From IMG/VR virus record IMGVR_UViG_2663762839_000016, positions 1 through 13,591 of that record: a stretch of 13,591 bases of DNA. One strand, written 5' to 3'. The position numbers and the translations under genes are program-made. The notes below the pieces were generated by a model. The model ran no database searches and was not told the DNA's origin. It saw nothing but the letters and a program-made list of their open reading frames with translations. Origin of the DNA: a virus. Its lineage: Duplodnaviria; Heunggongvirae; Uroviricota; Caudoviricetes. This document shows positions 1 through 12,994 of the stretch, piece after piece (positions within the stretch are counted from its first letter, which is position 1; each line of letters starts with the position of its first letter).

Positions 1-483
1 ATGACGAAGAAAAAAGCACATAAACCTGGTTCAGCGACCATCGCGCTTAACAAGCGCGCCCGTCACGAATACTTTATCGAAGAAGAGTTCGAAGCGGGAC
101 TTGCCCTGCAAGGCTGGGAAGTTAAATCCCTGCGCGCAGGAAAAGCCAATATCAGCGACAGCTACGTCCTTCTGCGTGACGGAGAGGCATTTCTGTTTGG
201 CGCTAACATCACGCCAATGGCCGTGGCCTCCACGCATGTGGTGTGCGATCCTACCCGTACCCGCAAGTTACTTCTCAACCAGCGCGAACTGGACTCATTG
301 TACGGTCGCGTCAATCGAGAAGGCTATACCGTAGTGGCGCTCTCCCTGTACTGGAAAAATGCCTGGTGCAAAGTGAAAATCGGCGTCGCCAAAGGTAAGA
401 AACAGCACGATAAACGTTCAGATATCAAAGAGCGCGAATGGCAGGTGGATAAAGCGCGTATCATGAAAAATGCCCACCGTTAA
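1..483 (+). CDS. smpB: SsrA-binding protein SmpB (trans-translation factor), complete 160 aa
   Basis: ORF 1..483 translates to [28 protein letters not shown]..., which I recognise as near-identical to enterobacterial SmpB; it lies directly upstream of tmRNA as in E. coli. Confidence 0.95.
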
Positions 484-697: not shown

Positions 698-1060
698 GGG
701 GCTGATTCTGGATTCGACGGGATTTGCGAAATCCAAGGTGCATGCCGAGGGGCGGTTGGCCTCGTAAAAAGCCGCAAAAAATAGTCGCAAACGACGAAAA
801 CTACGCTTTAGCAGCTTAATAACCTGCTTAGAGCCCTCTCTCCCTAGCCTCCGCTCTTAGGACGGGGATCAAGAGAGGTCAAACCCAAAAGAGATCGCGT
901 GGAAGCCCTGCCTGGGGTTGAAGCGTTAAAACTTAATCAGGCTAGTTTGTTAGTGGCGTGTCCGTCCGCAGCTGGCAAGCGAATGTAAAGACTGACTAAG
1001 CATGTAGTACCGAGGATGTAGGAATTTCGGACGCGGGTTCAACTCCCGCCAGCTCCACCA
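698..1060 (+). ncRNA. ssrA: tmRNA (SsrA, 10Sa RNA), 363 nt
   Basis: Starts GGGGCTGATTCTGGATTCGACGGG and ends GGGTTCAACTCCCGCCAGCTCCACCA; contains the tag reading frame and the tRNA-Ala-like acceptor/T-arm. Confidence 0.95.
787..819 (+). other. tmRNA tag-peptide reading frame (ANDENYALAA, stop TAA)
   Basis: GCA AAC GAC GAA AAC TAC GCT TTA GCA GCT TAA read directly; the E. coli-type tag (ENY) rather than the ETY I recall for Salmonella. Confidence 0.85.
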
Positions 1061-1979: not shown

Positions 1980-3088
1980 TTATTCCATTTCAAGATCATC
2001 AATCTTCACTTCGAGTTCAATACTGGTTGTAAAACCGTTATCCGGGCTGACGGTATGTGTCAGAGTCGTAATGGTCCATTCCGCATCATCTATCGGCTGT
2101 TTAAAACCACTGACCTTCACAGGCATTTCCGTGTAGAGATCTGCCCGCCCTTCCGCCAGTTGTAGCGAGAATGACGCAACGCCACGTTGCAGGCGTTCCC
2201 ACTGCATTTTCGCTGCCCGTTCAGCGTTGCTCCGGTTGGCATAAGTGCGATTAAGTACCAGCACGTTTTCATCCGTCCCCACCAGGTAATCGCCCTGCTT
2301 CGCTTCCGGCTCTTTCTTCTGCTTCTTAGTCCTGCGCTTACGCTTCACCGTAGTGCTTTCTTTCTTCGCGGGTTCGCGGGTTCGCGGGTATGCAACCAGC
2401 TGGCAATTACCCCCGTGTAAGCTCCGCGATCTGCCAGGGTAAAGCGGTGACTGTCGCCGTCCTTACGTGCGATAGTAATCACCGGCAGTGGTTTACCGCT
2501 GGCGCTTTTGCCCTGTCCCTGCCGGATGAATAACAGATTGCCATTTTTCACCGATGCAATGGCACCGTACTGGCGCGCCAGCCGCATCAAAAAACTGCCG
2601 TCACTCTCATTAGTCTGGTCTATATGCTCCACGGGCTTATCCGACAGGTCTTTACCCAGTGCCATCTTCAGCTTGTGCCGCGCGGCTATTTCCTTCACCA
2701 CTTCCCCGATGGTGGTGTTATGCCACGATTTTTCACGGCGGGTATTCAGCGTTTCCCGAAAATCAGCACTTCGCGCCCGGATAGTCAGGCGGTCCGGTGC
2801 GCCAGTGTGTTCAATCTCGTCCACCGTGAATGCCCCTTTCGGGAAAAGCGGCTGCCCCTTCCAGCCCAGCGCCAGCGTAATGACCGCACCACGGCGCGGC
2901 AGCACGATTTTTCCGTCGGCGTCGTCCAGATCCAGATCAAGCTGGTCCGCTTCAAAGCCTCGGTTATCCGTCAGCGTAAGCCCCATCAGGCGTTTGTCCA
3001 GCACAGTGGTGATATCCTTCCCCTCAATACTGATGCTGAATGCGGGAGTTTTGTTGCCTTTGTTAAGCAGTTCAGAGCTGAAATTCAC
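1980..3088 (-). pseudogene. P2 gpD-like tail protein, split by a frameshift into 247-aa (2345..3088) and 122-aa (1980..2348) pieces
   Basis: Both pieces are continuous in homology to the gpD family. The first ends ...HTREPANPRRKKALR* and the second continues KRKRRTKKQKKEPEAKQGDYLVG in another frame, overlapping by 4 nt. Confidence 0.7.
2365..2388. repeat. three perfect tandem copies of the 8-bp unit TTCGCGGG inside gene D, just upstream of the frame break
   Basis: Read directly: ttcgcggg ttcgcggg ttcgcggg. Confidence 0.9.
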
Positions 3089-3570
3089 GACAGCAGCCCT
3101 CCCACCGTTTTACTGATATCGCTTAAGGCAGACGTTGCCGTATCCTGCAAATTATTCAGCTGCGCACTGAGATCACCGAACATATCGGACATGGATTCAT
3201 CCACCCGTTTGAGCGACAGGGTAAACTCAATCCGGCGCGGCATACCATCGCGGAAAAACTCCGTTTTAGTCTGATTCAGTCCCTCAATCACATACATGCC
3301 GTAAATCGTGCCGCTGCCTTCAATCAGGGGCCATGCTTTTCCCTGTTCTGCCATCTGCTCCAGAGCCAGCAACGACAGCCTGCCGCCCGTTATCTCCGGC
3401 ATAAGAACACCAGAAAGCGTCAGCATGTCGTTGTCCGGTCCCAGAAATTGCGTGGACGGACGACGGTTTACCCGGCTGTTTTCCGCATGTCGCCAGCTGC
3501 GTTGATACTGCAGTTCCTGATACGGAACGGTGCGCAGCATAAACACGTACAATCCCAGCACCATCATCAT
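3085..3570 (-). CDS. P2 gpU-like tail protein (161 aa)
   Basis: Position between T and D; size close to the ~159 aa I recall for P2 gpU; start overlaps the T stop. Confidence 0.8.
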   Translation of the reverse strand: MMMVLGLYVFMLRTVPYQELQYQRSWRHAENSRVNRRPSTQFLGPDNDMLTLSGVLMPEITGGRLSLLALEQMAEQGKAWPLIEGSGTIYGMYVIEGLNQTKTEFFRDGMPRRIEFTLSLKRVDESMSDMFGDLSAQLNNLQDTATSALSDISKTVGGLLS

Positions 3571-5429
3571 GCGTCGTATCCCCCCTGATCGCTGTAGTTA
3601 CTCCTGGCTTTTGCCTTCAGCCTGCGTTCACGTTCATCAAGCTGGCGTGCCACCTCCCGCGCAATATCCTGCGCACTTTGTCCTGGCTGCGTCTGAATGA
3701 TGATCTGCGTCGGTGCCTCAATCCGGTGAACGGGCGGTACAGTGGCTGCACGACTCACCATCGCTTCGCCGCCTTTCGCGGGAAGTGCCAAAGGATGCAA
3801 TGGTGGAAGCTCTGCAGGCGCGGCAGCAACGCCCATCATTCCGGCAACAACGGCAGCCAGTGCAGCTGTATTTCTCCGGCTGGTCACATTTGCCGGGCCG
3901 TTAACAATTTCCGGCCCGTTTTCACCGACGATGCCAAACTGCCCGCGCGGGATATAGCCGCCGCTGTCATACATCCCCGCAAAGCCATATCCCCATGACG
4001 GAAAACCACCCGGTGGCATCATCACTTTACCGTCTGCATTCACCGTCGCAGGTTGCTGACGCGTCACGCTTTCCGGCAGTTTCGCCTTTGCAGCCTCTTT
4101 ACTGACAATGCCGAGTTTCTCCAGCAACCAGGAAACGCCGGATTTCAGGGAGTCCAGCGGATGCATGACCATATTCAGCCCTTCCGCCAGTGCCTCCCCG
4201 AATCGTCGCCCCATTGCCGCTGCACTCTGCAGTTCGGCAGAGGTCGACTTAACGGGCGTCAGCAGATCAGTAAACCAGCCCCACAGCGCCTGTACTTTGT
4301 CGCCAATCCACTGGAACACGGGCTTAAGCGGTTCGAATGCTGCACTGACGGGACCTGCCGCCGCTTTGAATCCTTCCACTACGCCACCAAGAAATGCGGT
4401 GATGGGTTGCCAGTATTTCCAGACAACCAGCGCCACGCCCGCCAGTGCAGTAACCACAAGACCTATCGGACTGAGCAGAGCACCTAACAGACCAGATACG
4501 GCATACAGGGCAACGCGCAGCATCGCCAGTGGACCAGATGCCAGTACTCGCAGCACCGTGCCTGCGGAGGCCAGTCCACCGCGCAGTACCGCCAGAGGAT
4601 TCATAAACATCACAGCAACAGCACGTAAACCGGATAATCCAGACCGCAAAAGTGCAACCGGCGCACCTGCTACAGTTTTCAGGACATTTCCCGTCAGTGA
4701 TGCCGTGCGGCGCAAAGACGACAACGGCGCAGTAAGTAAACCTGCGGCGTTGCCCGATGAAGCAAGCCCGCGTCGCAGCAGTGCAAGTGGTGCGCCAGCC
4801 AACCAGGACAACGCGCTGCTGGTTCGCGTTACTGCTGCCGTAACGGAAGGTAACGTTTTGATACCCAGCACAGAGAATCCCAGACGGATGACTGCCAGCG
4901 GCCCCAGCACAGCAGCCAACACCACAGCCAGGGTGCCGAGGCCCACAGTAACAGCAGCCACAACCGCGGCTACTTTCATCAGTGTGCCCGTCAGTTCAGG
5001 GTTAGCTTCTACCCAGCGACGCAACGCCCCCGTGATGCTTTTCACCGTGTACAGAATATCCATCAGCGGCTGGCGCAGCGTTTCGCCCAGGCTGCTGAAG
5101 GTGTTCTGCGCTCCGGTTTTGACCAGCAACCACTGCGCAGAAAGTGAGTCCTTGTTAATGTCGGATTCTTTCTGCATCGAACCGAGCGCATCATTGCCCG
5201 CTGTCAGTTTTAGCTGGCGCTGCAGTTCCGGCAGGTTGTTTGCCAGTTTCGCCGCATCATCGCCAAACTCTTTACCAAACAACATGGTCATGGCAGACAG
5301 GCGCTTATCCTGCGGCAGTGCGTTCACCTTCTCCAGTACGCGCTGGATAGTTCCCATCGCATCCTTCGTCAGCGGCATAACGTCAGTAACGGATGGCGGC
5401 CAGTGAAAGATGGTGGCGATATCAGCCAC
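3567..5429 (-). CDS. tail tape measure protein (gpT-like); ORF-track start is a GTG and the frame is continuous with the E -1 frame
   Basis: Long Ala/Gly/Leu-rich ORF with a hydrophobic central region, located between E and U. 620 aa versus the ~815 aa I recall for P2 gpT. No obvious SD before the GTG at 5429. Confidence 0.8.
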   Translation of the reverse strand: MADIATIFHWPPSVTDVMPLTKDAMGTIQRVLEKVNALPQDKRLSAMTMLFGKEFGDDAAKLANNLPELQRQLKLTAGNDALGSMQKESDINKDSLSAQWLLVKTGAQNTFSSLGETLRQPLMDILYTVKSITGALRRWVEANPELTGTLMKVAAVVAAVTVGLGTLAVVLAAVLGPLAVIRLGFSVLGIKTLPSVTAAVTRTSSALSWLAGAPLALLRRGLASSGNAAGLLTAPLSSLRRTASLTGNVLKTVAGAPVALLRSGLSGLRAVAVMFMNPLAVLRGGLASAGTVLRVLASGPLAMLRVALYAVSGLLGALLSPIGLVVTALAGVALVVWKYWQPITAFLGGVVEGFKAAAGPVSAAFEPLKPVFQWIGDKVQALWGWFTDLLTPVKSTSAELQSAAAMGRRFGEALAEGLNMVMHPLDSLKSGVSWLLEKLGIVSKEAAKAKLPESVTRQQPATVNADGKVMMPPGGFPSWGYGFAGMYDSGGYIPRGQFGIVGENGPEIVNGPANVTSRRNTAALAAVVAGMMGVAAAPAELPPLHPLALPAKGGEAMVSRAATVPPVHRIEAPTQIIIQTQPGQSAQDIAREVARQLDERERRLKAKARSNYSDQGGYDA

Positions 5430-5443
5430 CAGATCGTCAACCG

Positions 5444-5746
5444 TCAGGCTGTCGGTAAACCGGCAAGCACCGACTTCTTCAACAAAAAAGTGACAACCTC
5501 AACCGACATGGCAGTGAGATCTGCCGGGTCCATCTCTACAATTTCCTGTGCAGTCAGTGCCGGACTGGAGATGCGGGGGATCACGGTCATCATCGCGTTC
5601 ACATCCATATCCATAATGGCCTGCAGGCGCGTACCGCGCAGCGCACCGGACTGCGGTTTACGCAGCACAATTTCGGTGATTTCTGTTTTACCGCGCTTGA
5701 TGGGGGTATCCAGTTGAATAGTCTTTTCAGTCTGCTTATCGCTCAT
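5444..5746 (-). CDS. tail assembly chaperone gpE-like (100 aa)
   Basis: Small ORF directly upstream of the tape measure, with a T-TTT-TTG heptamer 11 codons before its stop. Confidence 0.75.
   Translation of the reverse strand: MSDKQTEKTIQLDTPIKRGKTEITEIVLRKPQSGALRGTRLQAIMDMDVNAMMTVIPRISSPALTAQEIVEMDPADLTAMSVEVVTFLLKKSVLAGLPTA
5483..5489 (-). other. programmed -1 frameshift slippery heptamer T TTT TTG (E to E')
   Basis: Plus strand reads caaaaaa, i.e. TTTTTTG on the coding strand in the X XXY YYZ register of the E frame; the same motif is described for P2 E/E'. Confidence 0.55.
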
Positions 5747-5800
5747 TTTGCTGTCCTGTAAATTGGGTTCTGGCGCGGTATCCCGCGCCGTTCAGATACA

Positions 5801-6316
5801 TCAGAGGCCGAGGGCGTTGCGGTGCGCTTCCATCAGGTCCACACCGTCCACAATTTCCACCATGTTGATAAGGTCCACTTCATAGAGCACCTCACCATTT
5901 ATAGTCAGCTTCGCGTAGCTGTTGGTACTGGTCACTTTGGTGGTGTTGCTTTCACCCGTCTTCCACTCGCCGGAATCCACTTCTTTGTGACGTCCACGCA
6001 CCACAAGCTCCACGGCCTGCACTTCCCCGGTATCGTCACGCTGGATAGAGCCGGTAAAGCGCAACTGGATACCATCCACCGTGGCTTTGCCCATCTGCTT
6101 AAACAGCAGCAGTTCAGTACCACCAATGGAAAATTCCGTATCCAGTGCGCCGTCATCCAGCCCCAGATCCACATCCACTGCACCCGGCATTCCGCCGCCG
6201 CGATACTTCTCATATTTGCGGGTAAATTTCGGCAGCGTCAGCGACTCAACGATCCCCTGCCAGTTGTTCCCGTCATTAAACAGGTTCAGGTGTTTTAATT
6301 TGCGTGGTAAAGCCAT
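5801..6316 (-). CDS. contractile tail tube protein (gpFII-like, 171 aa)
   Basis: Size and position downstream of the sheath gene match P2 FII. Confidence 0.85.
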   Translation of the reverse strand: MALPRKLKHLNLFNDGNNWQGIVESLTLPKFTRKYEKYRGGGMPGAVDVDLGLDDGALDTEFSIGGTELLLFKQMGKATVDGIQLRFTGSIQRDDTGEVQAVELVVRGRHKEVDSGEWKTGESNTTKVTSTNSYAKLTINGEVLYEVDLINMVEIVDGVDLMEAHRNALGL

Positions 6317-6325
6317 GTTGTCCCC

Positions 6326-7498
6326 TTACGCGCTGACCTGGCTGGAGAAATTCACCAGGTACTGATCGGTGATGCGCTGACGCAGCATCAGGTTTTCAAG
6401 TGGCGGCACTGGCGTGTAGTCGTAGTCGATGGTGAGTTTTCCGGCTTTCAGCGTGTCTTTGTCGTTCACCGACTCATCCAGCCAGCAATCACCACCAATG
6501 AGATAGCCCTGACTGACCAGGCTGCGCATTTTGGCGCGGATACCCTCGATAATGTCGCGGGCCAGCGACGGATTCAGCGGTTTATCCACCGCCCACATGT
6601 GCGCTTCTGCCATCGTGTCCGTCAGCACCTGCGCCGTGCGGGTGTAGTTTTCGAAGGCAAAGAGCGGGTCATCACTCAGGCAGCGGGAACCCCAGAAGCG
6701 AAAACCGTCTTTGCGGATAAGGGTGGTGACGTCGTTCTGGTTCAGCAGTCCCGCATCGGTTGCCGGGTCCTGCAGATCCCAGAACACATCAGCAGAAATT
6801 CCGGTGACACCGTTAACGCCCACGTTGGACAGGCTTTTGTGCCATCCGGTCTGCTCGTCAATTTTGGCGCGCAGACCAAGCGCACGGGCGGTGGCATAAG
6901 CCGTTGCTTCGGCATTCAGCACCGTGTCCCAGCCAGTAAAGTCGGGCCAGATCAGCATTCCTTCACGCTGACTGAAGTTTTCACGGTAAGTGATTGCTTC
7001 CTGCACTGTCTTGCAACCATACGCTGACAGGTAAGCAAATCCACGCAGGCTTTGCGCCACGCTCAGCAACTCAGTAGCTACCGCCTTCGTGTCGTGACCT
7101 GGCACGCCGAGAATGCGCGGTTTAACGCCGAGCTGTGACTGGGCAGATAACAGGGCTTTCATGCCTGTTTTTTTACCTTCAGCGGTCACTGCTCCGATGA
7201 TATTGGTCGTGGTTTCTTCTTCCGTTTCACCCTGCGGCACACGCACAACAACGGTCACGGGTTTTGCCTGGTCAGCGATGGCATCCAGCGAACGAGCCAG
7301 CGTGCCTGACTCACCCGCTTTACCGCTGGCAGTCAGCACATCAGTGATCAGCACGGGTTTATTAAGAGGAAACATTTTTGCATCGGCATCATCGCCCGTG
7401 CAGACCATACCCACGATGGCGGTGCTCACCGTGGTAATGGATCGGGTGCCTTCGTTGACTTCAACAACGCGCACCCCGTGGTGGTAATCCTGAGCCAT
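6326..7498 (-). CDS. contractile tail sheath protein (gpFI-like, 390 aa)
   Basis: Size and position match P2 FI; strong AGGAGG SD 9 nt upstream of the ATG. Confidence 0.9.
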
Positions 7499-7574
7499 AG
7501 TGGCGAACCTCCTGATTGGATTAGGCTTCGCCCTATGTTGAAGTGATTGTGCCTGACAAACAGCTAAGCGCAGT

Positions 7575-7640: not shown

Positions 7641-8213
7641 TCAGGGAGATTTATTGTTCTTATTTGCCGGAAATTTTCGATAAATGGTAGAAACGCCTAC
7701 ATCAAAAATCAGTGCAATACGCTGTCTTGATTCTCCGGCCTCGAGTAAACGCCCAATCTGTGCCCACTGTTCGCTGGTCAACTTAGGACGGCGTCCACCT
7801 ACTCTGCCTTTAGCACGAGCTGCAGCCAGCCCCGCCCTGGTACGTTCAACTATCAGTTCGCGTTCCATTTCAGCCAGGGCACCCATGACATGAAAAAAGA
7901 AACGGCCCATTGGGGTGCTGGTATCAATACTGTCAGTCAGGCTTCGGAAATTCACGCCACGCTGGCGCAGCTCTTCTATCAGCGTAACAAGATGCCGCAT
8001 ACTGCGCCCCAGTCTGTCCAGCTTCCAGACAACCAGCGTGTCTCCTGCCGATAGTGTCCTGAGCAGCTTTTTCAGCCCCGGTCTGTCGGACTTGGTGCCA
8101 CTGATTTTATCCTCAAAAATCCGCTCACATCCCGCACAGTTCAGTGCATTGCGTTGCAAATCGGTGTTCTGGTCATTTGTTGACACGCGTACATAACCAA
8201 TAAGCATGATCAT
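7641..8213 (-). CDS. serine DNA invertase of the Hin/Gin/Pin/Cin family
   Basis: MLIGYVRVSTNDQNTDLQRNAL...GDTLVVWKLDRLGRSMRHL...MGRFFFHVMGALAEMERELI... recognised as near-identical in pattern to Gin/Pin, with a C-terminal HTH. Confidence 0.9.
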   Translation of the reverse strand: MIMLIGYVRVSTNDQNTDLQRNALNCAGCERIFEDKISGTKSDRPGLKKLLRTLSAGDTLVVWKLDRLGRSMRHLVTLIEELRQRGVNFRSLTDSIDTSTPMGRFFFHVMGALAEMERELIVERTRAGLAAARAKGRVGGRRPKLTSEQWAQIGRLLEAGESRQRIALIFDVGVSTIYRKFPANKNNKSP

Positions 8214-8262
8214 CCCCCTGAATAAAAACCGGAGATGATGCCAGTTAGCCGTTATCTCTGCA

Positions 8263-8288
8263 TTTTCATAAACGTTGGTTTGGGAGAA
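8263..8288. other. invertase crossover site (hix/gix-like), pin-proximal
   Basis: TTTTCATAAACG-TT-GGTTTGGGAGAA; the right half-site and central TT are identical to the reverse complement of the site at 9873-9898. Confidence 0.7.
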
Positions 8289-8729
8289 GGCTCTGCATTA
8301 CCTGTTGGTGTGCCTGTTCCATGGCCTTCAGCCACACCGCCAACAGGCTGGCTGAAATGCAATGGTGCGCCTTTTTCTGCAGAAGAATACCCGGAACTGG
8401 CCAAGGCTTATCCGACAAATAAATTGCCTGATTTACGTGGTGAGTTTATTCGTGGATGGGATGATGGGCGCGGGGTTGATAATGGAAGAAGTATCCTGTC
8501 CTCTCAGAGTGACACATTACAAGACCACGGCCATAAGTCGATAAGGTTGCGATCTGTTGGCGCAAACGGGGGAAATATTCCAGTTCCCGATGGCGGCGCT
8601 GATTTCACTGGAGATGCTGACTTAATCAATGCGATTTCAGTCCATGCATTTAACGGTGGGGTTCCAAGAGTATCGGGAGAAACACGCCCCCGCAACATTG
8701 CATTTAACTACATCGTGAGGGCTGCATAA
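8277..8729 (+). CDS. alternative (currently unexpressed) tail-fibre C-terminal segment Hv'
   Basis: Begins at the G-L-G-E codons of the crossover site, in frame; ends ...NIAFNYIVRAA, matching the P2 H C-terminus as I recall it. The upstream ATG at 8235 lies outside the invertible segment and is probably not a real start. Confidence 0.7.
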   Translation, partial: GLGEGSALPVGVPVPWPSATPPTGWLKCNGAPFSAEEYPELAKAYPTNKLPDLRGEFIRGWDDGRGVDNGRSILSSQSDTLQDHGHKSIRLRSVGANGGNIPVPDGGADFTGDADLINAISVHAFNGGVPRVSGETRPRNIAFNYIVRAA

Positions 8730-9328
8730 TGACACAGGCAAAATTAAACAGTGAATTTATTGCCACAGTAGCGGGTGATATTACCGTCTATAACTATGAC
8801 AACACGACACGGGAATACATTTCATCATCAACAGAATATCTTGCCGTTGGCGTCGGTATCCCGGCATGTTCTTGTTTAGATGCACCAGTTACACATAAAG
8901 CTGGTTATGCAATCTGCCGTTCTGCAGATTTTAACTCATGGGAATATGTACCAGACCATCGCGGTGAAATCATCTATAGCACCGAAACAGGAGAATCGAA
9001 AGAAATCACAGCTCTGGGTGATTACCCTGAAAATACAACCACTATCGCCCCGTTAACGCCATATGATAAATGGGATGGTGAGAAATGGGTGACGGATACC
9101 GAGGCACAATATAGCGCCGCAGTGGACGCGGCAGAAATCCAACGCCAGTCACTGATTGATGCTGCAATGGCTTCCATTAGTCTGATTCAGCTGAAATTAC
9201 GGGCCGGACGGAATCTGACGCAGGCAGAAACCGCCCGACTTAACGCTGCGCTGGATTACATTGACGCGGTGACGGCAACTGATACCAGCACCGCGCCGGA
9301 TATCAATTGGCCTGAACTGTACGTCTAG
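8729..9328 (+). CDS. tail fibre assembly protein (Tfa/gpG-like, 199 aa), paired with Hv'
   Basis: ...WDGEKWVTDTEAQ...NAALDYIDAVTATDTSTAPDINWPE resembles lambda Tfa / P2 G-type chaperones; immediately downstream of Hv'. Confidence 0.75.
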   Translation: MTQAKLNSEFIATVAGDITVYNYDNTTREYISSSTEYLAVGVGIPACSCLDAPVTHKAGYAICRSADFNSWEYVPDHRGEIIYSTETGESKEITALGDYPENTTTIAPLTPYDKWDGEKWVTDTEAQYSAAVDAAEIQRQSLIDAAMASISLIQLKLRAGRNLTQAETARLNAALDYIDAVTATDTSTAPDINWPELYV

Positions 9329-9537
9329 CTTACCATTACCCACGTGGGTAGCCCATTGCTACCCGCCGCTCGTTTCATTCCCTCCGGAGGCGTCCCTAAA
9401 AACTTCAGAGCCATATCGTCATCGACGGGCTTAATATCATCAGGCAGAATGCCATTTGAACGGTATGCATTGAGTAATACTGCCGGATAAAATTGATTCG
9501 TTGTCGCGCTATAAAAGTAAATATTCATTATCACCAT
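9325..9537 (-). CDS. short tail-fibre-assembly-like ORF (70 aa) paired with the expressed fibre C-terminus; possibly truncated
   Basis: N-terminus MNIYFYSATTNQFYPAVLL... looks like a fibre-assembly chaperone N-terminus, but the ORF is about a third the length of its inverted partner. Confidence 0.45.
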   Translation of the reverse strand: MVIMNIYFYSATTNQFYPAVLLNAYRSNGILPDDIKPVDDDMALKFLGTPPEGMKRAAGSNGLPTWVMVS

Positions 9538-10670
9538 CCCTTCGCATACCAGTTACATGTCAAATTTGCCGGATTAACGTTATTACCCTCTGCCGTTGCG
9601 CAGCCAACCCTGAATTTTGAGTTGCTGACAGGGAATGCCTGTGAAATCTCGGCATATGACGTGTCATTCGGATCCGAGCTAATTAAAACGAACGCACAAC
9701 GGTTCGGGAATGGGATGACAAAATCTCCATCGCCGTTTCCATAATTACCGCGCCCCCATTGCTCAAGAAATCCATCTGGCGTCAACCGCCACCCGTAATC
9801 TGCTTTCAGCGATGTCCATTTGCTCATATCAGGGATCTGATTTGCCCCAATCCCAACATCCCTTTTTGCCGCTTCTCCCAAACCAAGGTATGTGAGAAGA
9901 CCAGCTACATCCTTTCCACTCAAATTAGTCAGCGTATTGTCCAGCGGTTGTTTACCTGCCAGCGCATTAAGCATTGTCGTGGCAAAGTTCGGGTCATTCC
10001 CCAGCGCTGCCGCCAGTTCGTTCAGTGTATCCAGTGCCGCAGGTGCAGAACCCACCATTGCCGCAATCGCCGATTTCACAAATGCCGTGGTGGCAATCTG
10101 TGTATTGTTGACCGACTGTGCCGCCGTGGGGGCTGTTGGCGTTCCGGTGAGTGCCGGACTCGACAACGGTGCTTTTAGTGCCAGCGCATTGTTAATGGTG
10201 GTACTGAAATTCGGATCATTGTTAATGGCTGCGGCTATTTCTTTCAGCGTGTCCAGCGTGGCTGGCGCACCATTAATAAGGGCCGTCAGTGCCGCCTGTA
10301 CAAACGCAGTGGTCGCAACCTGCGTGGTATTATTCCCCGCCGCTGGCGTTGGCGCTTTGGGGGTTCCGGTAAATGTCGGGCTGGCTTTTGGCGCGTACTG
10401 TGAATGCGGGTCCGGTGCGGCAAGATGTTTTGCCATCTGATCATCCGCGTACACCTTCAGCGCAACCTGCTTTAAACGCGGCTGCGTCACCGTGCCGTCA
10501 GTGCGCATCACGCTGCGAAACTCCGACAGGTCCACATCAGGCCAGAACGGCGTGTTTCTGATGATTTCCGCCTGTTCCGGTGCCTGTTCTGGCGCAACAA
10601 ACTTCATGCTGCTTTCTCCTGAAATAAAGGGCGGTGGACGGGGTTTTGATGTGGTAGAGCCTTTCGCCAC
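9531..10670 (-). CDS. tail fibre protein (gpH-like repeat region and variable C-terminus) with an N-terminal ~70 aa that looks gpL-like; probable L'::'H fusion
   Basis: Residues ~80-260 match the P2 H central repeats (PALTGTPTAPTA...NTQIATTAFV...ALDTLNELAAALGNDPNFATTMLNALAGKQP). The N-terminus FWPDVDLSEFRSVMRTDGTVTQPRLKQ does not resemble a fibre N-terminus and lies where gene L follows M in P2. Confidence 0.7.
   Translation of the reverse strand: MAKGSTTSKPRPPPFISGESSMKFVAPEQAPEQAEIIRNTPFWPDVDLSEFRSVMRTDGTVTQPRLKQVALKVYADDQMAKHLAAPDPHSQYAPKASPTFTGTPKAPTPAAGNNTTQVATTAFVQAALTALINGAPATLDTLKEIAAAINNDPNFSTTINNALALKAPLSSPALTGTPTAPTAAQSVNNTQIATTAFVKSAIAAMVGSAPAALDTLNELAAALGNDPNFATTMLNALAGKQPLDNTLTNLSGKDVAGLLTYLGLGEAAKRDVGIGANQIPDMSKWTSLKADYGWRLTPDGFLEQWGRGNYGNGDGDFVIPFPNRCAFVLISSDPNDTSYAEISQAFPVSNSKFRVGCATAEGNNVNPANLTCNWYAKGW
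9873..9898. other. invertase crossover site (hix/gix-like) inside the tail fibre gene
   Basis: TTCTCCCAAACC-AA-GGTATGTGAGAA; its reverse complement shares the 12-bp half-site GGTTTGGGAGAA and the central dinucleotide with the site at 8263-8288. Confidence 0.7.
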
Positions 10671-10702: not shown

Positions 10703-11107
10703 TCAGCGGCTGTCATTGCGCAGTCTGCGCTCCAGCTGCTGTTTGTCTTTTTTCACGCCACAGCGGGGATCGAGCTGTAACGCATGGTTGAGATGGTTAA
10801 GGGCAGAAGCCGGATTGCTTTCACTCAGGACAGCGCCAATCGCTTTATGCAGACGCGCCCGTGACTGGTCCGGCATATCCAGACCGTCTGTCAGCTCCAG
10901 CGTCTGCAACAACAGATCGGCATCAAAGCCGGTGGCGGCAAGCATTGCGCTCTGCGCCGCGTCTGCCATTTCCTCTGCCAGCACGGTCTGCACATTGCGG
11001 TTACCCAGCGGCATCACCCAGCCATGACGCAGGGCATGACGCCCGATCTCCAGCGCCCCGGCATAATCTCCGGCATCAATGCGCCACAGCATCACGTACA
11101 TCAGCAC
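10703..11107 (-). pseudogene. C-terminal fragment of terminase small/endonuclease subunit (gpM-like)
   Basis: MYVMLWRIDAGDYAGALEIGRHALRHG...LELTDGLDMPDQSRARLHK...GVKKDKQQLERRL resembles the C-terminal half of P2 gpM as I recall it; the N-terminal half and all genes between A and M are missing. Confidence 0.55.
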
Positions 11108-12753
11108 GTCATGCCAAAGAAGCGGAATTGCTGAACACGATGCAGAGACGCCCAGGCATTAACGTATTCAGCGTTATCACGCAGGGATTTACCCGTTTCC
11201 TTGCTGATCTCGCCAGCCAGACCACGCCCGTCAATGTTCTTACTGATGTATTTCGCGATGTAGCTTGTTGGCGTACCTTTGCGCGGGTTTATCAGCTCAG
11301 ACTTAAAGCGTGGCCCCGTGTTATTGCCCAGCTCCTCGCGGTCTTCACGGATGGCAAACTTACGCAACAATGCAGTAATGGCGCGGCGGTCTTTTTTACG
11401 CATGAAACACAACAGGTGCCAGTGAACTGTGCCGTCATGATGCGGCTCAGCCACCCGCACGCCATACCAGCGCAACCCGGCTTTGTGCATAGCCTTACGA
11501 AATGCAGCAAACATGCCGACCAGATAATCGCTGCTTTGTCTTACTGTCGCGTTGGTCCAGGTCGGGTTTGGCCTGCCGTTATTTAGCGTGGAATGGAAAC
11601 GTGACGGACAGGTGATGGTGTAGAAAACGGCGCAGTCACCACGCATTTCCGCGATAAGCTCCAGGCCTTTAACACAGGCCATCATCTCATTGCGGCGATG
11701 CGCCGGGTTGCTGCTGCTGGCGTTTACCACATCCTCCATGTTCAGCGTGTCGCCGTCTTCGTTCACCAGTTCATGAGAACGGAAAAACTCCAGCGACTTA
11801 CGGCGCTGCTCACGTTTATGCATCACGGCTTCATAGCTGACATAGGGAGATGCTTTTTTGCTGACCAGGCAGACAGCACGCAACTGCTCTTCCCACCATT
11901 CGCAACGCATCTTCCATAATTTCCGATACCACCAGTCGGCGCACAGCATACGCGCCAGCGAACCCGGAATGAGTTCATAGGGCACAGGTTTGCGGCGGTT
12001 TCTTTTCCGGCGGAGTTGCTCAAACGCAGGCGGTATGACATCCAGTCGCAGGGTTTCTGCAGCCACCTTTTCCCATGTCTTGCGGATTTCTTCTGGCTTA
12101 ACATCATCGGAGGCGTACAAATCACCACAAGCGGCATCAAGACACATGCTCATATGCGCAGCGACAAGGGTAGACAGGCGTTTCACCTGATCCTGACTCA
12201 TTTCAGGCAGGATCAGCAGACCGTCCAGCCCTTCATGGCTTGCCATAAAACGAAAAGATGCAGATAGCTGGCTGTCGCGTACATGCTCCAGTCGTTCCAG
12301 ACATGGCTTAATCGTCTCACGCAAATAGCGGGAATAAGCCTTTGGCCTGCCCAGGCTGCTGAAATATTCAATACGTTGCATCAGCGGCTTGCTGATATGG
12401 GAAGGCTGGGCGTTGACGTCGGCCAGAATGACCATGTCCGGATTAAAACGCTGCTGCTCATGCGCCATCTTTGCCCGGCTAATGAGCTTATCCTGCTCCA
12501 TTTCGCGTTGGACAGGATCACGGGATTCATTAAAGAAATAACGCTCCCAGACCTGATCACTCAGTGCCTCGCGGCGCAGTTGTTCCTGCTCGTTATCAGT
12601 AGCGTACAGAGTGATCAGGTTTGAAAGCGCAGAAACCGGCGCAACTTCCGCCGGGTCCAGATAAGGGTTAATGGCCTTTTTCGGGCTGTTCCATGAGAAC
12701 GATGCGGCAGCTTCGTTAAAGCCGCAGCAGTTGTTCATATCGGCATGACTCAT
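11101..12753 (-). pseudogene. rolling-circle replication initiator (gpA-like), C-terminally truncated
   Basis: HUH motif ([15 protein letters not shown]) and paired catalytic tyrosines ([12 protein letters not shown]) are present. The ORF stops about 35 aa after the Y motif, whereas I recall P2 gpA as ~761 aa. Confidence 0.7.
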
Positions 12754-12994
12754 GCACGTACTCCGTACACGGCAGAACTATCCACGCCACGCGAATAATC
12801 AAATCCCACCCAGCAGCGCGGCCCGGAAACAGCAATGATTTCTGTTGCTGATTTACCCTCGCCAGCTGCCACACCGATGCTGCGTTTTGCCTTGATGTAG
12901 TGGTGAGTAAAATTGCGATACAGCGAACGGATCAGGGATGTGTCACTGTTAGAAACAATGACCGGATGTCCTTCTGATGACCGATGTTCAAGAA
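12750..12994 (-). pseudogene. 5'-truncated phage gene fragment immediately upstream of A (the position of gene B in P2)
   Basis: ORF overlaps the A start by 4 nt; its apparent start codons lie within fliR-derived sequence, so the native 5' end is missing. Identity not recognised. Confidence 0.3.

What the first reader, a model, noticed from the sequence alone, without database searches (positions are those of the whole stretch)
5429..5500. The -1 frame after the E slippery heptamer runs straight into the tape-measure ORF
After a -1 slip at T TTT TTG the frame reads FFVEEVGACRFTDSLTVDDLVADIATIFHWPPS... and continues without a stop through the whole 620-codon tape-measure ORF, which only opens after a TGA at about 5501-5503. 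In P2 as described, E' is a short extension ending in its own frame, and T starts independently. Here T has only a GTG with no clear SD and is shorter than I recall for P2. This suggests an in-frame deletion fusing E' to T, or an unusual arrangement where tape measure is made only as a frameshift fusion.
Basis: partly seen in the sequence, partly recalled or inferred. Interest (0 to 1): 0.55.

Follow-up and report, generated by a model that had tools for sequence, protein, structure and literature searches.

The report
Deletion scar in a dead prophage
The unbroken reading frame from the tail-chaperone frameshift site into the tape-measure gene is real, but a single 1,327-base deletion created it in a badly decayed P2-like prophage, so it is ordinary gene decay and not a new way of making a tape-measure protein.

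Summary
On the minus strand, the -1 frame after the T TTT TTG heptamer (5489..5483) of gene E runs without a stop to 3567.

Intact relatives are Escherichia phage Cartapus, an intact ssrA prophage in E. coli EC23HZZ201, and P2 itself. In these, E' ends at its own stop, which overlaps the T start codon by 8 nt, and T lies in the +1 frame relative to E'.

The window lacks 1,327 nt (3n+1) between a TGAC microhomology in E' and codon 426 of a 1,025-codon T. The deletion removes the last 18 codons of E', its stop, the T start and T codons 1-426. It cuts both conserved domains: GpE keeps 21 of 37 profile positions, and TIGR01760 keeps positions 206-349 of 349.

The junction is absent from 5,426 complete E. 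coli genomes (1,008 carry this E gene), from all phage records, from IMG/VR and from GTDB representatives. It occurs only in the source assembly (GCA_000946855.1) and in one Logan assembly.

The same prophage carries an 8-nt frameshifting insertion in D and deletions of 5,969 and 6,843 nt that remove baseplate, lysis, head and packaging genes. Its right end is truncated and joined to fliR. This is a private decay lesion of low interest.

The parts
5444..5746 (-). Gene E, tail assembly chaperone (100 aa), intact
   Evidence: Pfam PF10109 Phage_TAC_7, E=4e-18, profile 1-78/79. It differs at one of 100 residues from Cartapus E (V70A).
5483..5489 (-). Slippery heptamer T TTT TTG for the -1 programmed frameshift (E to E+E')
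   Evidence: Position. The sequence and position in E are identical to Cartapus. P2 has the same heptamer at 19678-19684, next to its annotated frameshift site at 19685.
5499..5501 (-). TGA that opens the -1 frame upstream of the heptamer
5367..5483 (-). E' remnant: the first 39 of 57 codons of the -1 extension (VEEVGACRF...HWPPSVTDVMPLT). Its last 18 codons and its stop are missing.
   Evidence: Pfam PF06528 Phage_P2_GpE matches profile positions 1-21 of 37 only, against 1-37/37 in Cartapus E'. Fusion residues 1-128 match Cartapus E+E' residues 1-128 of 145.
5368..5371 (.). Deletion junction. A 4-nt microhomology TGAC (minus strand; GTCA on plus) is shared by both parental sequences. 1,327 nt are missing relative to intact relatives.
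   Evidence: blastn against Cartapus: the match runs to L001 4433 and resumes at 5757. The same breakpoint is found against the intact prophage L004. The parental sites are TGAC-C-GAAG in E' and TGAC-GAAG in T.
3567..5366 (-). T remnant: tape-measure codons 427-1025 plus stop. It has no start of its own and is now in frame with E'.
   Evidence: Fusion residues 126-726 match Cartapus T 425-1025 at 98.3% identity with no gaps. NCBIfam TIGR01760 covers only profile 206-349 of 349, against 2-349 in intact T. Pfam PhageMin_Tail, present in intact T at residues 246-457, is no longer detected.
5427..5429 (-). GTG that the ORF finder takes as the 'T start'. It is really the Val codon of E' (…DDLVADIA…).
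   Evidence: The same GTG is present inside the intact E' of Cartapus.
5355..5357 (-). Internal ATG (Met430 of intact T), preceded by GAAGGA 4 nt upstream. It is the start chosen by the public gene call (596 aa).
   Evidence: upstream 20 nt TGCCGCTGACGAAGGATGCG. The exact 596-aa product is on record for the source contig.
3085..3570 (-). Gene U (161 aa), intact, overlapping the T stop
   Evidence: Pfam PF06995 Phage_P2_GpU, E=7.5e-45.
1980..3088 (-). Gene D, split into 247-aa and 122-aa ORFs by an extra 8-nt repeat copy at 2371-2378
   Evidence: Pfam Phage_GPD hits both halves. There is an 8-nt gap against L004. The window has CCCGCGAA x3 against CCCGCGAA-CCTGCGAA in L004. Removing one copy restores a 366-aa D, the intact length.
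5801..7498 (-). FII tube (5801-6316) and FI sheath (6326-7498) genes upstream in the same operon, intact
   Evidence: Pfam Phage_tube and Phage_sheath_1/1C.

Best explanation
The window is the remnant of a P2-like (Elveevirus-type, Peduoviridae) prophage integrated at ssrA.

In the functional ancestor the FI-FII-E-E'-T-U-D operon had the standard layout:
- E carries a T TTT TTG -1 frameshift site.
- E' is a 57-codon extension that ends at its own stop, which overlaps the T start codon by 8 nt.
- T is a separately initiated 1,025-aa tape-measure protein in the +1 frame relative to E'.

A single illegitimate-recombination or replication-slippage event between two short similar sites removed 1,327 nt. 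The sites are TGACCGAAG in E' and TGACGAAG in T. Because 1,327 = 3n+1, the surviving 599 codons of T fell into the E' frame. This produced a stop-free -1 frame from the heptamer to the end of T.

If the operon is still transcribed, three products are possible:
- Ribosomes reading frame 0 make normal E.
- The minority that slip would make a 726-aa E-E'(1-39)-T(427-1025) chimera.
- Some truncated T might start at the internal ATG at 5357.

None of these can serve tail assembly. The E' domain and the tape-measure core domain are both cut. The baseplate, head, packaging, lysis and integration genes are gone from the prophage.

Shown: the deletion, its endpoints, its frame arithmetic, its restriction to one source, and the other lesions. 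Inferred: the mechanism of deletion (from the microhomology) and the loss of function.
For: (1) Breakpoints. The window's minus strand matches Cartapus continuously up to L001 4433 and resumes at 5757, with a 4-nt overlap. Identity is 99% on the left and 95-96% on the right. The same result is obtained against an intact ssrA prophage.

(2) Protein level. Fusion residues 1-128 match E+E' 1-128 of 145. Residues 126-726 match T 425-1025.

(3) Truncated domains. GpE covers 1-21 of 37 profile positions, against 1-37 in the intact protein. TIGR01760 covers 206-349 of 349, against 2-349.

(4) Normal layout elsewhere. In Cartapus, E' ends at 4491 and T starts at 4484. In P2, E' ends at 19857 and T starts at 19850. 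In both, the frames are E=2, E'=1, T=2. The E' frame has 54 stops across intact T.

(5) Restricted occurrence.
- 0 of 1,008 E. coli genomes carrying this E gene span the junction.
- 0 of 60 phage records span it.
- IMG/VR gave no hit.
- GTDB representatives gave only an unrelated chance 22-mer in Tahibacter.
- The 596-aa product is on record on two contigs only, the source contig and one Logan contig.

(6) Other decay in the same element.
- An 8-nt insertion splits D.
- A 5,969-nt deletion runs from H to L.
- A 6,843-nt deletion runs from M to A.
- The right end is cut inside a methylase gene and joined to fliR.
Against: Expression and function were not measured, so the non-functional status is inferred from gene content and truncated domains.

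The direction of change (deletion here, not insertion in the relatives) is inferred. The grounds are that both flanking genes are incomplete here and complete in all relatives.

The two assemblies that show the junction may derive from the same reads, so support for the junction is not fully independent.

Sheath, tube, E, U and ogr remain intact, so some residual expression or co-option cannot be formally excluded.
Confidence: 0.93

Rival explanations
1. It is a functional, selected arrangement. In this lineage the tape-measure protein is made only as a frameshift fusion to its chaperone, so that the frameshift frequency sets tape-measure dosage.
For: The heptamer and the 112 nt downstream of it are identical to those of a functional phage. 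The -1 frame is open for 640 codons. Sheath, tube, E and U are intact.
Against: - The junction is found in no other genome or phage.
- It cuts two conserved domains mid-way.
- It removes 426 of 1,025 T residues.
- The element has lost its baseplate, head, terminase, portal and lysis genes, and D is frameshifted.
Confidence: 0.02
2. It is an assembly or sequencing artefact. The deletion is not present in the organism's DNA, and the contig was mis-joined.
For: The source is a short-read draft contig of 26 kb. The same contig ends in an unexpected prophage::fliR join 597 nt from its end. That join could be a chimeric assembly.
Against: The two deletion ends share only 4 nt exactly (8 of 9 with one indel). 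That is far below any assembler k-mer, so a repeat collapse cannot explain the junction. An independent assembler (Logan, run ERR738831) gives an identical 61-mer across the junction.
Confidence: 0.04
3. The T remnant is expressed independently as a 596-aa N-terminally truncated tape-measure protein from the internal ATG at 5357. In that case the frame continuity with E' is irrelevant to what is made.
For: GAAGGA lies 4 nt upstream of the ATG at 5357. The public gene call chose this start.
Against: In the intact gene this ATG is the ordinary internal Met430 of T, and the SD-like run is ordinary coding sequence. A gene-caller's choice is not evidence of initiation. This reading is compatible with the deletion explanation and does not replace it.
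Confidence: 0.15

Closest known systems
Phage P2 E / E+E' tail assembly chaperone with -1 programmed frameshift (Christie et al. 2002, cited in PMC5009743 as B141; RefSeq NC_001895 annotation)
   Same: - The gene order is the same: FI-FII-E-(E')-T-U-D.
- The heptamer T TTT TTG lies at the equivalent place near the 3' end of E.
- The E' motif DDL(V/M)AD(I/V)A(T/V)IFHWPPS is shared.

   Different: In P2, E' is complete and stops at 19857, overlapping the T ATG at 19850. Here the last 18 codons of E', its stop and the T start are deleted, and the frame runs on into T codon 427.
Escherichia phage Cartapus (OV696611 / NC_070909, Elveevirus, Peduoviridae) and the intact ssrA prophage of E. coli EC23HZZ201 (NZ_CP168035)
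   Same: DNA identity is 96-99% across the tail operon. The integration site next to smpB-ssrA is the same in the EC23HZZ201 prophage. E and the frameshift site are nearly identical or identical.
   Different: These relatives have a 145-aa E+E', a 1,025-aa T, a 366-aa D and the full set of baseplate, head, lysis and replication genes. The window lacks 1,327 + 5,969 + 6,843 nt, carries an 8-nt insertion and has lost its right arm.
Lambda gpG / gpGT chaperones and gpH tape measure
   Same: The logic is the same. The chaperone gene sits just upstream of the tape-measure gene, and a low-frequency -1 frameshift extends the chaperone (PMC5009743).
   Different: In lambda, as in P2, the frameshift product is a separate protein from the tape measure. 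A covalent chaperone-tape-measure fusion is not part of the known system. Here it is a by-product of a deletion.
Cryptic or defective prophages of enterobacteria (general phenomenon of prophage decay by deletion and frameshift)
   Same: There are multiple independent inactivating lesions, essential modules are lost, and deletion junctions carry only short microhomology and no mobile element.
   Different: Nothing material. This is a typical example.

Membership tests
P2-type E / E+E' frameshifted tail assembly chaperone | E ORF of the Phage_TAC_7 family located between the tube gene and the tape-measure gene | tested here: met
   PF10109, E=4e-18, profile 1-78/79. Gene order is FII-E-T.
P2-type E / E+E' frameshifted tail assembly chaperone | Slippery heptamer T TTT TTG near the 3' end of E, opening a -1 frame | tested here: met
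   The heptamer is at 5489..5483. It is identical to Cartapus and P2.
P2-type E / E+E' frameshifted tail assembly chaperone | Complete GpE (PF06528) domain in the -1 extension, ending at its own stop that overlaps the T start | tested here: not met
   Only profile positions 1-21 of 37 are present. There is no stop before the end of T. Cartapus has 1-37/37 and a stop at 4489-4491.
P2-type E / E+E' frameshifted tail assembly chaperone | Frameshifting actually occurs (about 10% in P2) | not testable with these tools
   This needs a reporter assay or ribosome profiling. The sequence signal is unchanged for 112 nt downstream of the heptamer.
Phage tail tape measure protein (TIGR01760 / PF10145) | Complete tape-measure core domain | tested here: not met
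   TIGR01760 covers profile 206-349 of 349 only. PF10145 is not detected. Intact T has TIGR01760 2-349 and PF10145 2-201/201.
Phage tail tape measure protein (TIGR01760 / PF10145) | Own initiation codon immediately after or overlapping the E' stop | tested here: not met
   The T ATG (Cartapus L001 4484) lies inside the deleted 1,327 nt.
Phage tail tape measure protein (TIGR01760 / PF10145) | Collinear homology of the remaining part to T of close relatives | tested here: met
   601 aa at 98.3% identity to Cartapus T 425-1025, with no gaps.
Defective (cryptic) prophage | Loss of modules essential for virion production and excision | tested here: met
   By comparison with L004 the following are missing:
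- part of H, and I, J, W, V, S and R
- the lysis genes and X
- most of L and part of M
- N, O, P and Q
- the C-terminal 256 aa of A
- everything beyond the methylase gene
Defective (cryptic) prophage | Several independent inactivating lesions | tested here: met
   There are three deletions (1,327, 5,969 and 6,843 nt), one 8-nt frameshifting insertion and one truncating junction.
Defective (cryptic) prophage | The lesion is lineage-private, not typical of the phage group | tested here: met
   0 of 1,008 E. coli genomes and 0 of 60 phage records span the junction. The IMG/VR scan found no match, and the GTDB-representative scan found only one unrelated chance match (Tahibacter). Exactly two contigs on record encode the product.

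The most novel reading that the evidence does not exclude
The residual operon (ogr, FI, FII, E, T remnant, U) is still expressed. The frameshift-dependent E-E'-T(427-1025) chimera, a chaperone covalently tethered to a membrane-active tape-measure C-terminal part, would then have acquired a host-beneficial or toxic role that keeps the open frame intact.
Probability: 0.02. Interest if true: 0.4.

Novelty: already known. Interest (0 to 1): 0.08.

Why it matters
It matters little biologically. It is one more example of prophage decay, seen in one assembly and one matching Logan contig.

Its practical value is for annotation:
- An ORF finder reports a plausible-looking 620-aa 'tape measure' with a GTG start.
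- A public gene call reports a 596-aa version.
- Both hide the fact that the gene is a 5'-truncated pseudogene fused to a truncated E'.

It also gives a clean natural example of how a 3n+1 deletion can place a downstream gene under the control of an upstream programmed frameshift signal. That could serve as a ready-made reporter for P2-type frameshifting if anyone wanted one.

Tried and rejected
- Junction search in GTDB representatives. I searched the 22-mer GCCGCTGACGAAGGATGCGATG. The single hit, in Tahibacter harae, has completely unrelated flanks and is a chance match.
- Junction search in IMG/VR found nothing.
- Repeat collapse in assembly. I considered it and rejected it, because the parental sites share only 4 exact nt.
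- A 1,326-nt in-frame deletion plus a separate 1-nt indel in E or E'. The first blastn table suggested this. The residue-level alignment shows the 'gap' is blastn extending across the junction. The event is a single 1,327-nt deletion.
- Natural chaperone-tape-measure fusions in the literature. Full-text searches turned up none.
- The original P2 frameshift paper (Christie et al. 2002) is not held in the library. I used the RefSeq annotation of P2 and the Atkins et al. 2016 review instead.
- Exact look-ups of the 620-aa (GTG) and 603-aa (ATG 5378) versions of the ORF found nothing. Only the 596-aa version is on record.

Full report
**What is in the sequence**

All relevant genes are on the minus strand. 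The order is:
- sheath FI (7498..6326)
- tube FII (6316..5801)
- E (5746..5444, 100 aa, Pfam Phage_TAC_7)
- a long ORF (5429..3567, 620 aa from a GTG)
- U (3570..3085)
- D, split in two (3088..2345 and 2348..1980)

The heptamer T TTT TTG lies at 5489..5483. The -1 frame opens after a TGA at 5501..5499. It reads GCHFFVEEVGACRFTDSLTVDDLVADIATIFHWPPS..., and its only stop comes 640 codons after the heptamer, at the end of the long ORF. The other two frames stop within 14 and 2 codons.

**What the intact version looks like**

A blastn search of 5800..5000 against phage records gave 60 records. None covered more than 55% of the query. Every good hit stopped at query base 437 and had a second place further on.

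The closest phage is Escherichia phage Cartapus (Elveevirus, Peduoviridae). Its annotation is:
- E at 4055-4357
- a GpE-family CDS (E') ending at 4491
- a 1,025-aa tape-measure gene T starting at 4484
- U at 7558

P2 itself has the same design:
- E at 19430-19705
- E+E' joined by a -1 shift and ending at 19857
- T starting at 19850

In both phages the E' stop overlaps the T ATG by 8 nt. T is in the E frame, which is +1 relative to E'. In Cartapus the E' frame has 54 stops across T. The Atkins et al. review confirms that the G/GT-type frameshift is conserved in long-tailed phages, and that its efficiency in P2-like phages is 2-3 times that of lambda (PMC5009743).

**The lesion**

The window's minus strand aligns to Cartapus continuously up to L001 4433 (99% identity) and resumes at L001 5757 (95-96%). 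The two alignments overlap by the four bases TGAC. The parental sites are GCCGCTGAC-C-GAAGTG in E' and CAGATGAC-GAAGGATG in T. The product is GCCGCTGACGAAGGATG.

The missing stretch is 1,327 nt, which is 3n+1. That is the length class needed to move T into the E' frame. The junction is at window 5371..5368, inside a Thr codon (ACG, 5369..5367) that both parents share.

The conceptual frameshift product is 726 aa:
- residues 1-128 match Cartapus E+E' 1-128 of 145
- residues 126-726 match Cartapus T 425-1025 (98.3% identity, no gaps)

E' has therefore lost its last 18 residues and its stop. T has lost its start and residues 1-426.

Both conserved domains are cut:
- Pfam GpE matches profile positions 1-21 of 37 here, against 1-37 in Cartapus.
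- NCBIfam TIGR01760 matches positions 206-349 of 349 here, against 2-349 in intact T.
- Pfam PhageMin_Tail, present in intact T, is no longer detected.

The GTG at 5429 is simply the Val codon of the E' motif DDLVADIA, and it is present in intact E' as well.

**Is it typical of any lineage?**

It is not.
- A 361-nt query spanning the junction matched 1,008 of 5,426 complete E. coli genomes. None covered more than 57% in one place, so all of them have the intact arrangement.
- A 22-mer across the junction is absent from IMG/VR.
- In one genome per GTDB species the 22-mer hit only an unrelated site in Tahibacter harae.
- An exact look-up of candidate products found only the 596-aa version, which starts at the ATG at 5357. 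It occurs on two contigs: NCBI GCA_000946855.1 contig CDRI01000009.1 (26,218 nt) and a Logan assembly of run ERR738831.

The window is the reverse complement of one end of the NCBI contig. Both contigs carry the identical 61-mer across the junction. Whether the two assemblies come from the same reads is unknown.

**Context: a decayed prophage**

I aligned the whole window to an intact prophage at the same chromosomal site (smpB-ssrA, E. coli EC23HZZ201, locus L004). The window's 13 kb corresponds to 27 kb there. Besides the E'/T deletion there are four other lesions.

(i) An extra 8-nt repeat copy sits in D at 2371-2378. The window has CCCGCGAA x3. Removing one copy restores the 366-aa D.

(ii) A 5,969-nt deletion at about 10458-10461 removes part of H, the baseplate genes, the tail-completion genes S and R, the lysis genes, X, and most of L. 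It leaves an in-frame L(1-50)::H(155-453) chimera.

(iii) A 6,843-nt deletion at 11111/11112 removes part of M, the capsid, scaffold, terminase and portal genes, and the C-terminal 256 residues of the replication protein A.

(iv) The right arm is truncated at 12994, inside a DNA adenine methylase gene. It is joined to codon ~54 of fliR, a gene that normally lies far from ssrA.

Such an element cannot make virions, tails or tailocins.

**Mechanism and consequences**

The best-supported account is a single spontaneous deletion between short similar sequences, by illegitimate recombination or replication slippage, in an already or subsequently decaying prophage. The frame continuity is a one-in-three accident of the deletion length.

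If the late operon is still transcribed (ogr is present next to D):
- Ribosomes in frame 0 would make normal E.
- The slipping minority would make the E-E'-T chimera.
- The internal ATG at 5357, which has GAAGGA 4 nt upstream, might give some truncated T.

These products are inferred, not shown. None can be expected to work in tail assembly.

**Rivals**

- A selected 'tape measure only by frameshift' design is contradicted by the restricted occurrence of the junction, the cut domains and the missing modules.
- An assembly artefact is unlikely. Four bases of shared sequence cannot cause a collapse, and two assemblers agree. Only read mapping or PCR would close this.

**Novelty and score**

The E/E' frameshift, the tape-measure gene and prophage decay are all well known. 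The specific scar is confined to the source assembly and one matching Logan contig and has no evident function.

Interest is 0.08.

Noticed in passing
window 2355-2400 (minus strand), gene D: An 8-nt unit, CCCGCGAA, is present three times in tandem. The intact relative has CCCGCGAA-CCTGCGAA. The extra copy splits D into 247-aa and 122-aa ORFs, and removing it restores a 366-aa D. The exact 122-aa C-terminal ORF is on record on 33 contigs, including a 4.37-Mb genome. D may therefore be broken at or near this repeat recurrently in other strains.
   Followed up: partly
window 10458-10461; ORF 10670..9531 (-): A 5,969-nt deletion with a CAGC microhomology removes part of H, the baseplate genes, the tail-completion genes S and R, the lysis genes, X, and most of L. 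It creates an in-frame chimera of head-completion protein L (residues 1-50) and tail fibre H (residues 155-453). This is a second accidental gene fusion in the same element.
   Followed up: yes
window 11111-11112; ORFs 12753..11101 and 11107..10703 (-): A 6,843-nt deletion joins replication endonuclease A (cut at residue 548 of 804) to the terminase small/endonuclease subunit M (residues 83-216 kept). It removes the capsid, scaffold, large terminase, portal and DinI-like genes.
   Followed up: yes
window 12994/12995 to 13591: The prophage ends abruptly inside a DNA adenine methylase gene and is joined to fliR from about codon 54. The contig ends 597 nt later, 30 nt before the fliR stop. smpB-ssrA and fliR are far apart in the E. 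coli genomes seen. This is either a large inversion or rearrangement with one end in the prophage, or a chimeric join in the draft assembly.
   Followed up: partly
window 1-483 and 698-1060 (+): smpB and the ssrA tmRNA gene (tag ANDENYALAA) lie immediately next to the prophage remnant. This matches the attachment site of the intact relative in E. coli EC23HZZ201.
   Followed up: yes
window 7641-9540: There is a DNA invertase gene (8213..7641) next to oppositely oriented tail-fibre and tail-fibre-assembly ORFs. The stretch 8680-9319 is only 84% identical to the intact relative, with many small indels. This is the usual invertible host-range segment, and it carries a different allele here.
   Followed up: no
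protein cluster of P0001: The same 90% protein cluster holds other N-terminally short tape-measure proteins. One is 855 aa, starts at residue 171 of the 1,025-aa form and comes from a complete K. pneumoniae genome. Another is 859 aa with a different first 159 residues. 5' damage or rearrangement of this T gene therefore seems common in prophages. The cluster also contains sheath proteins, apparently a clustering artefact.
   Followed up: partly
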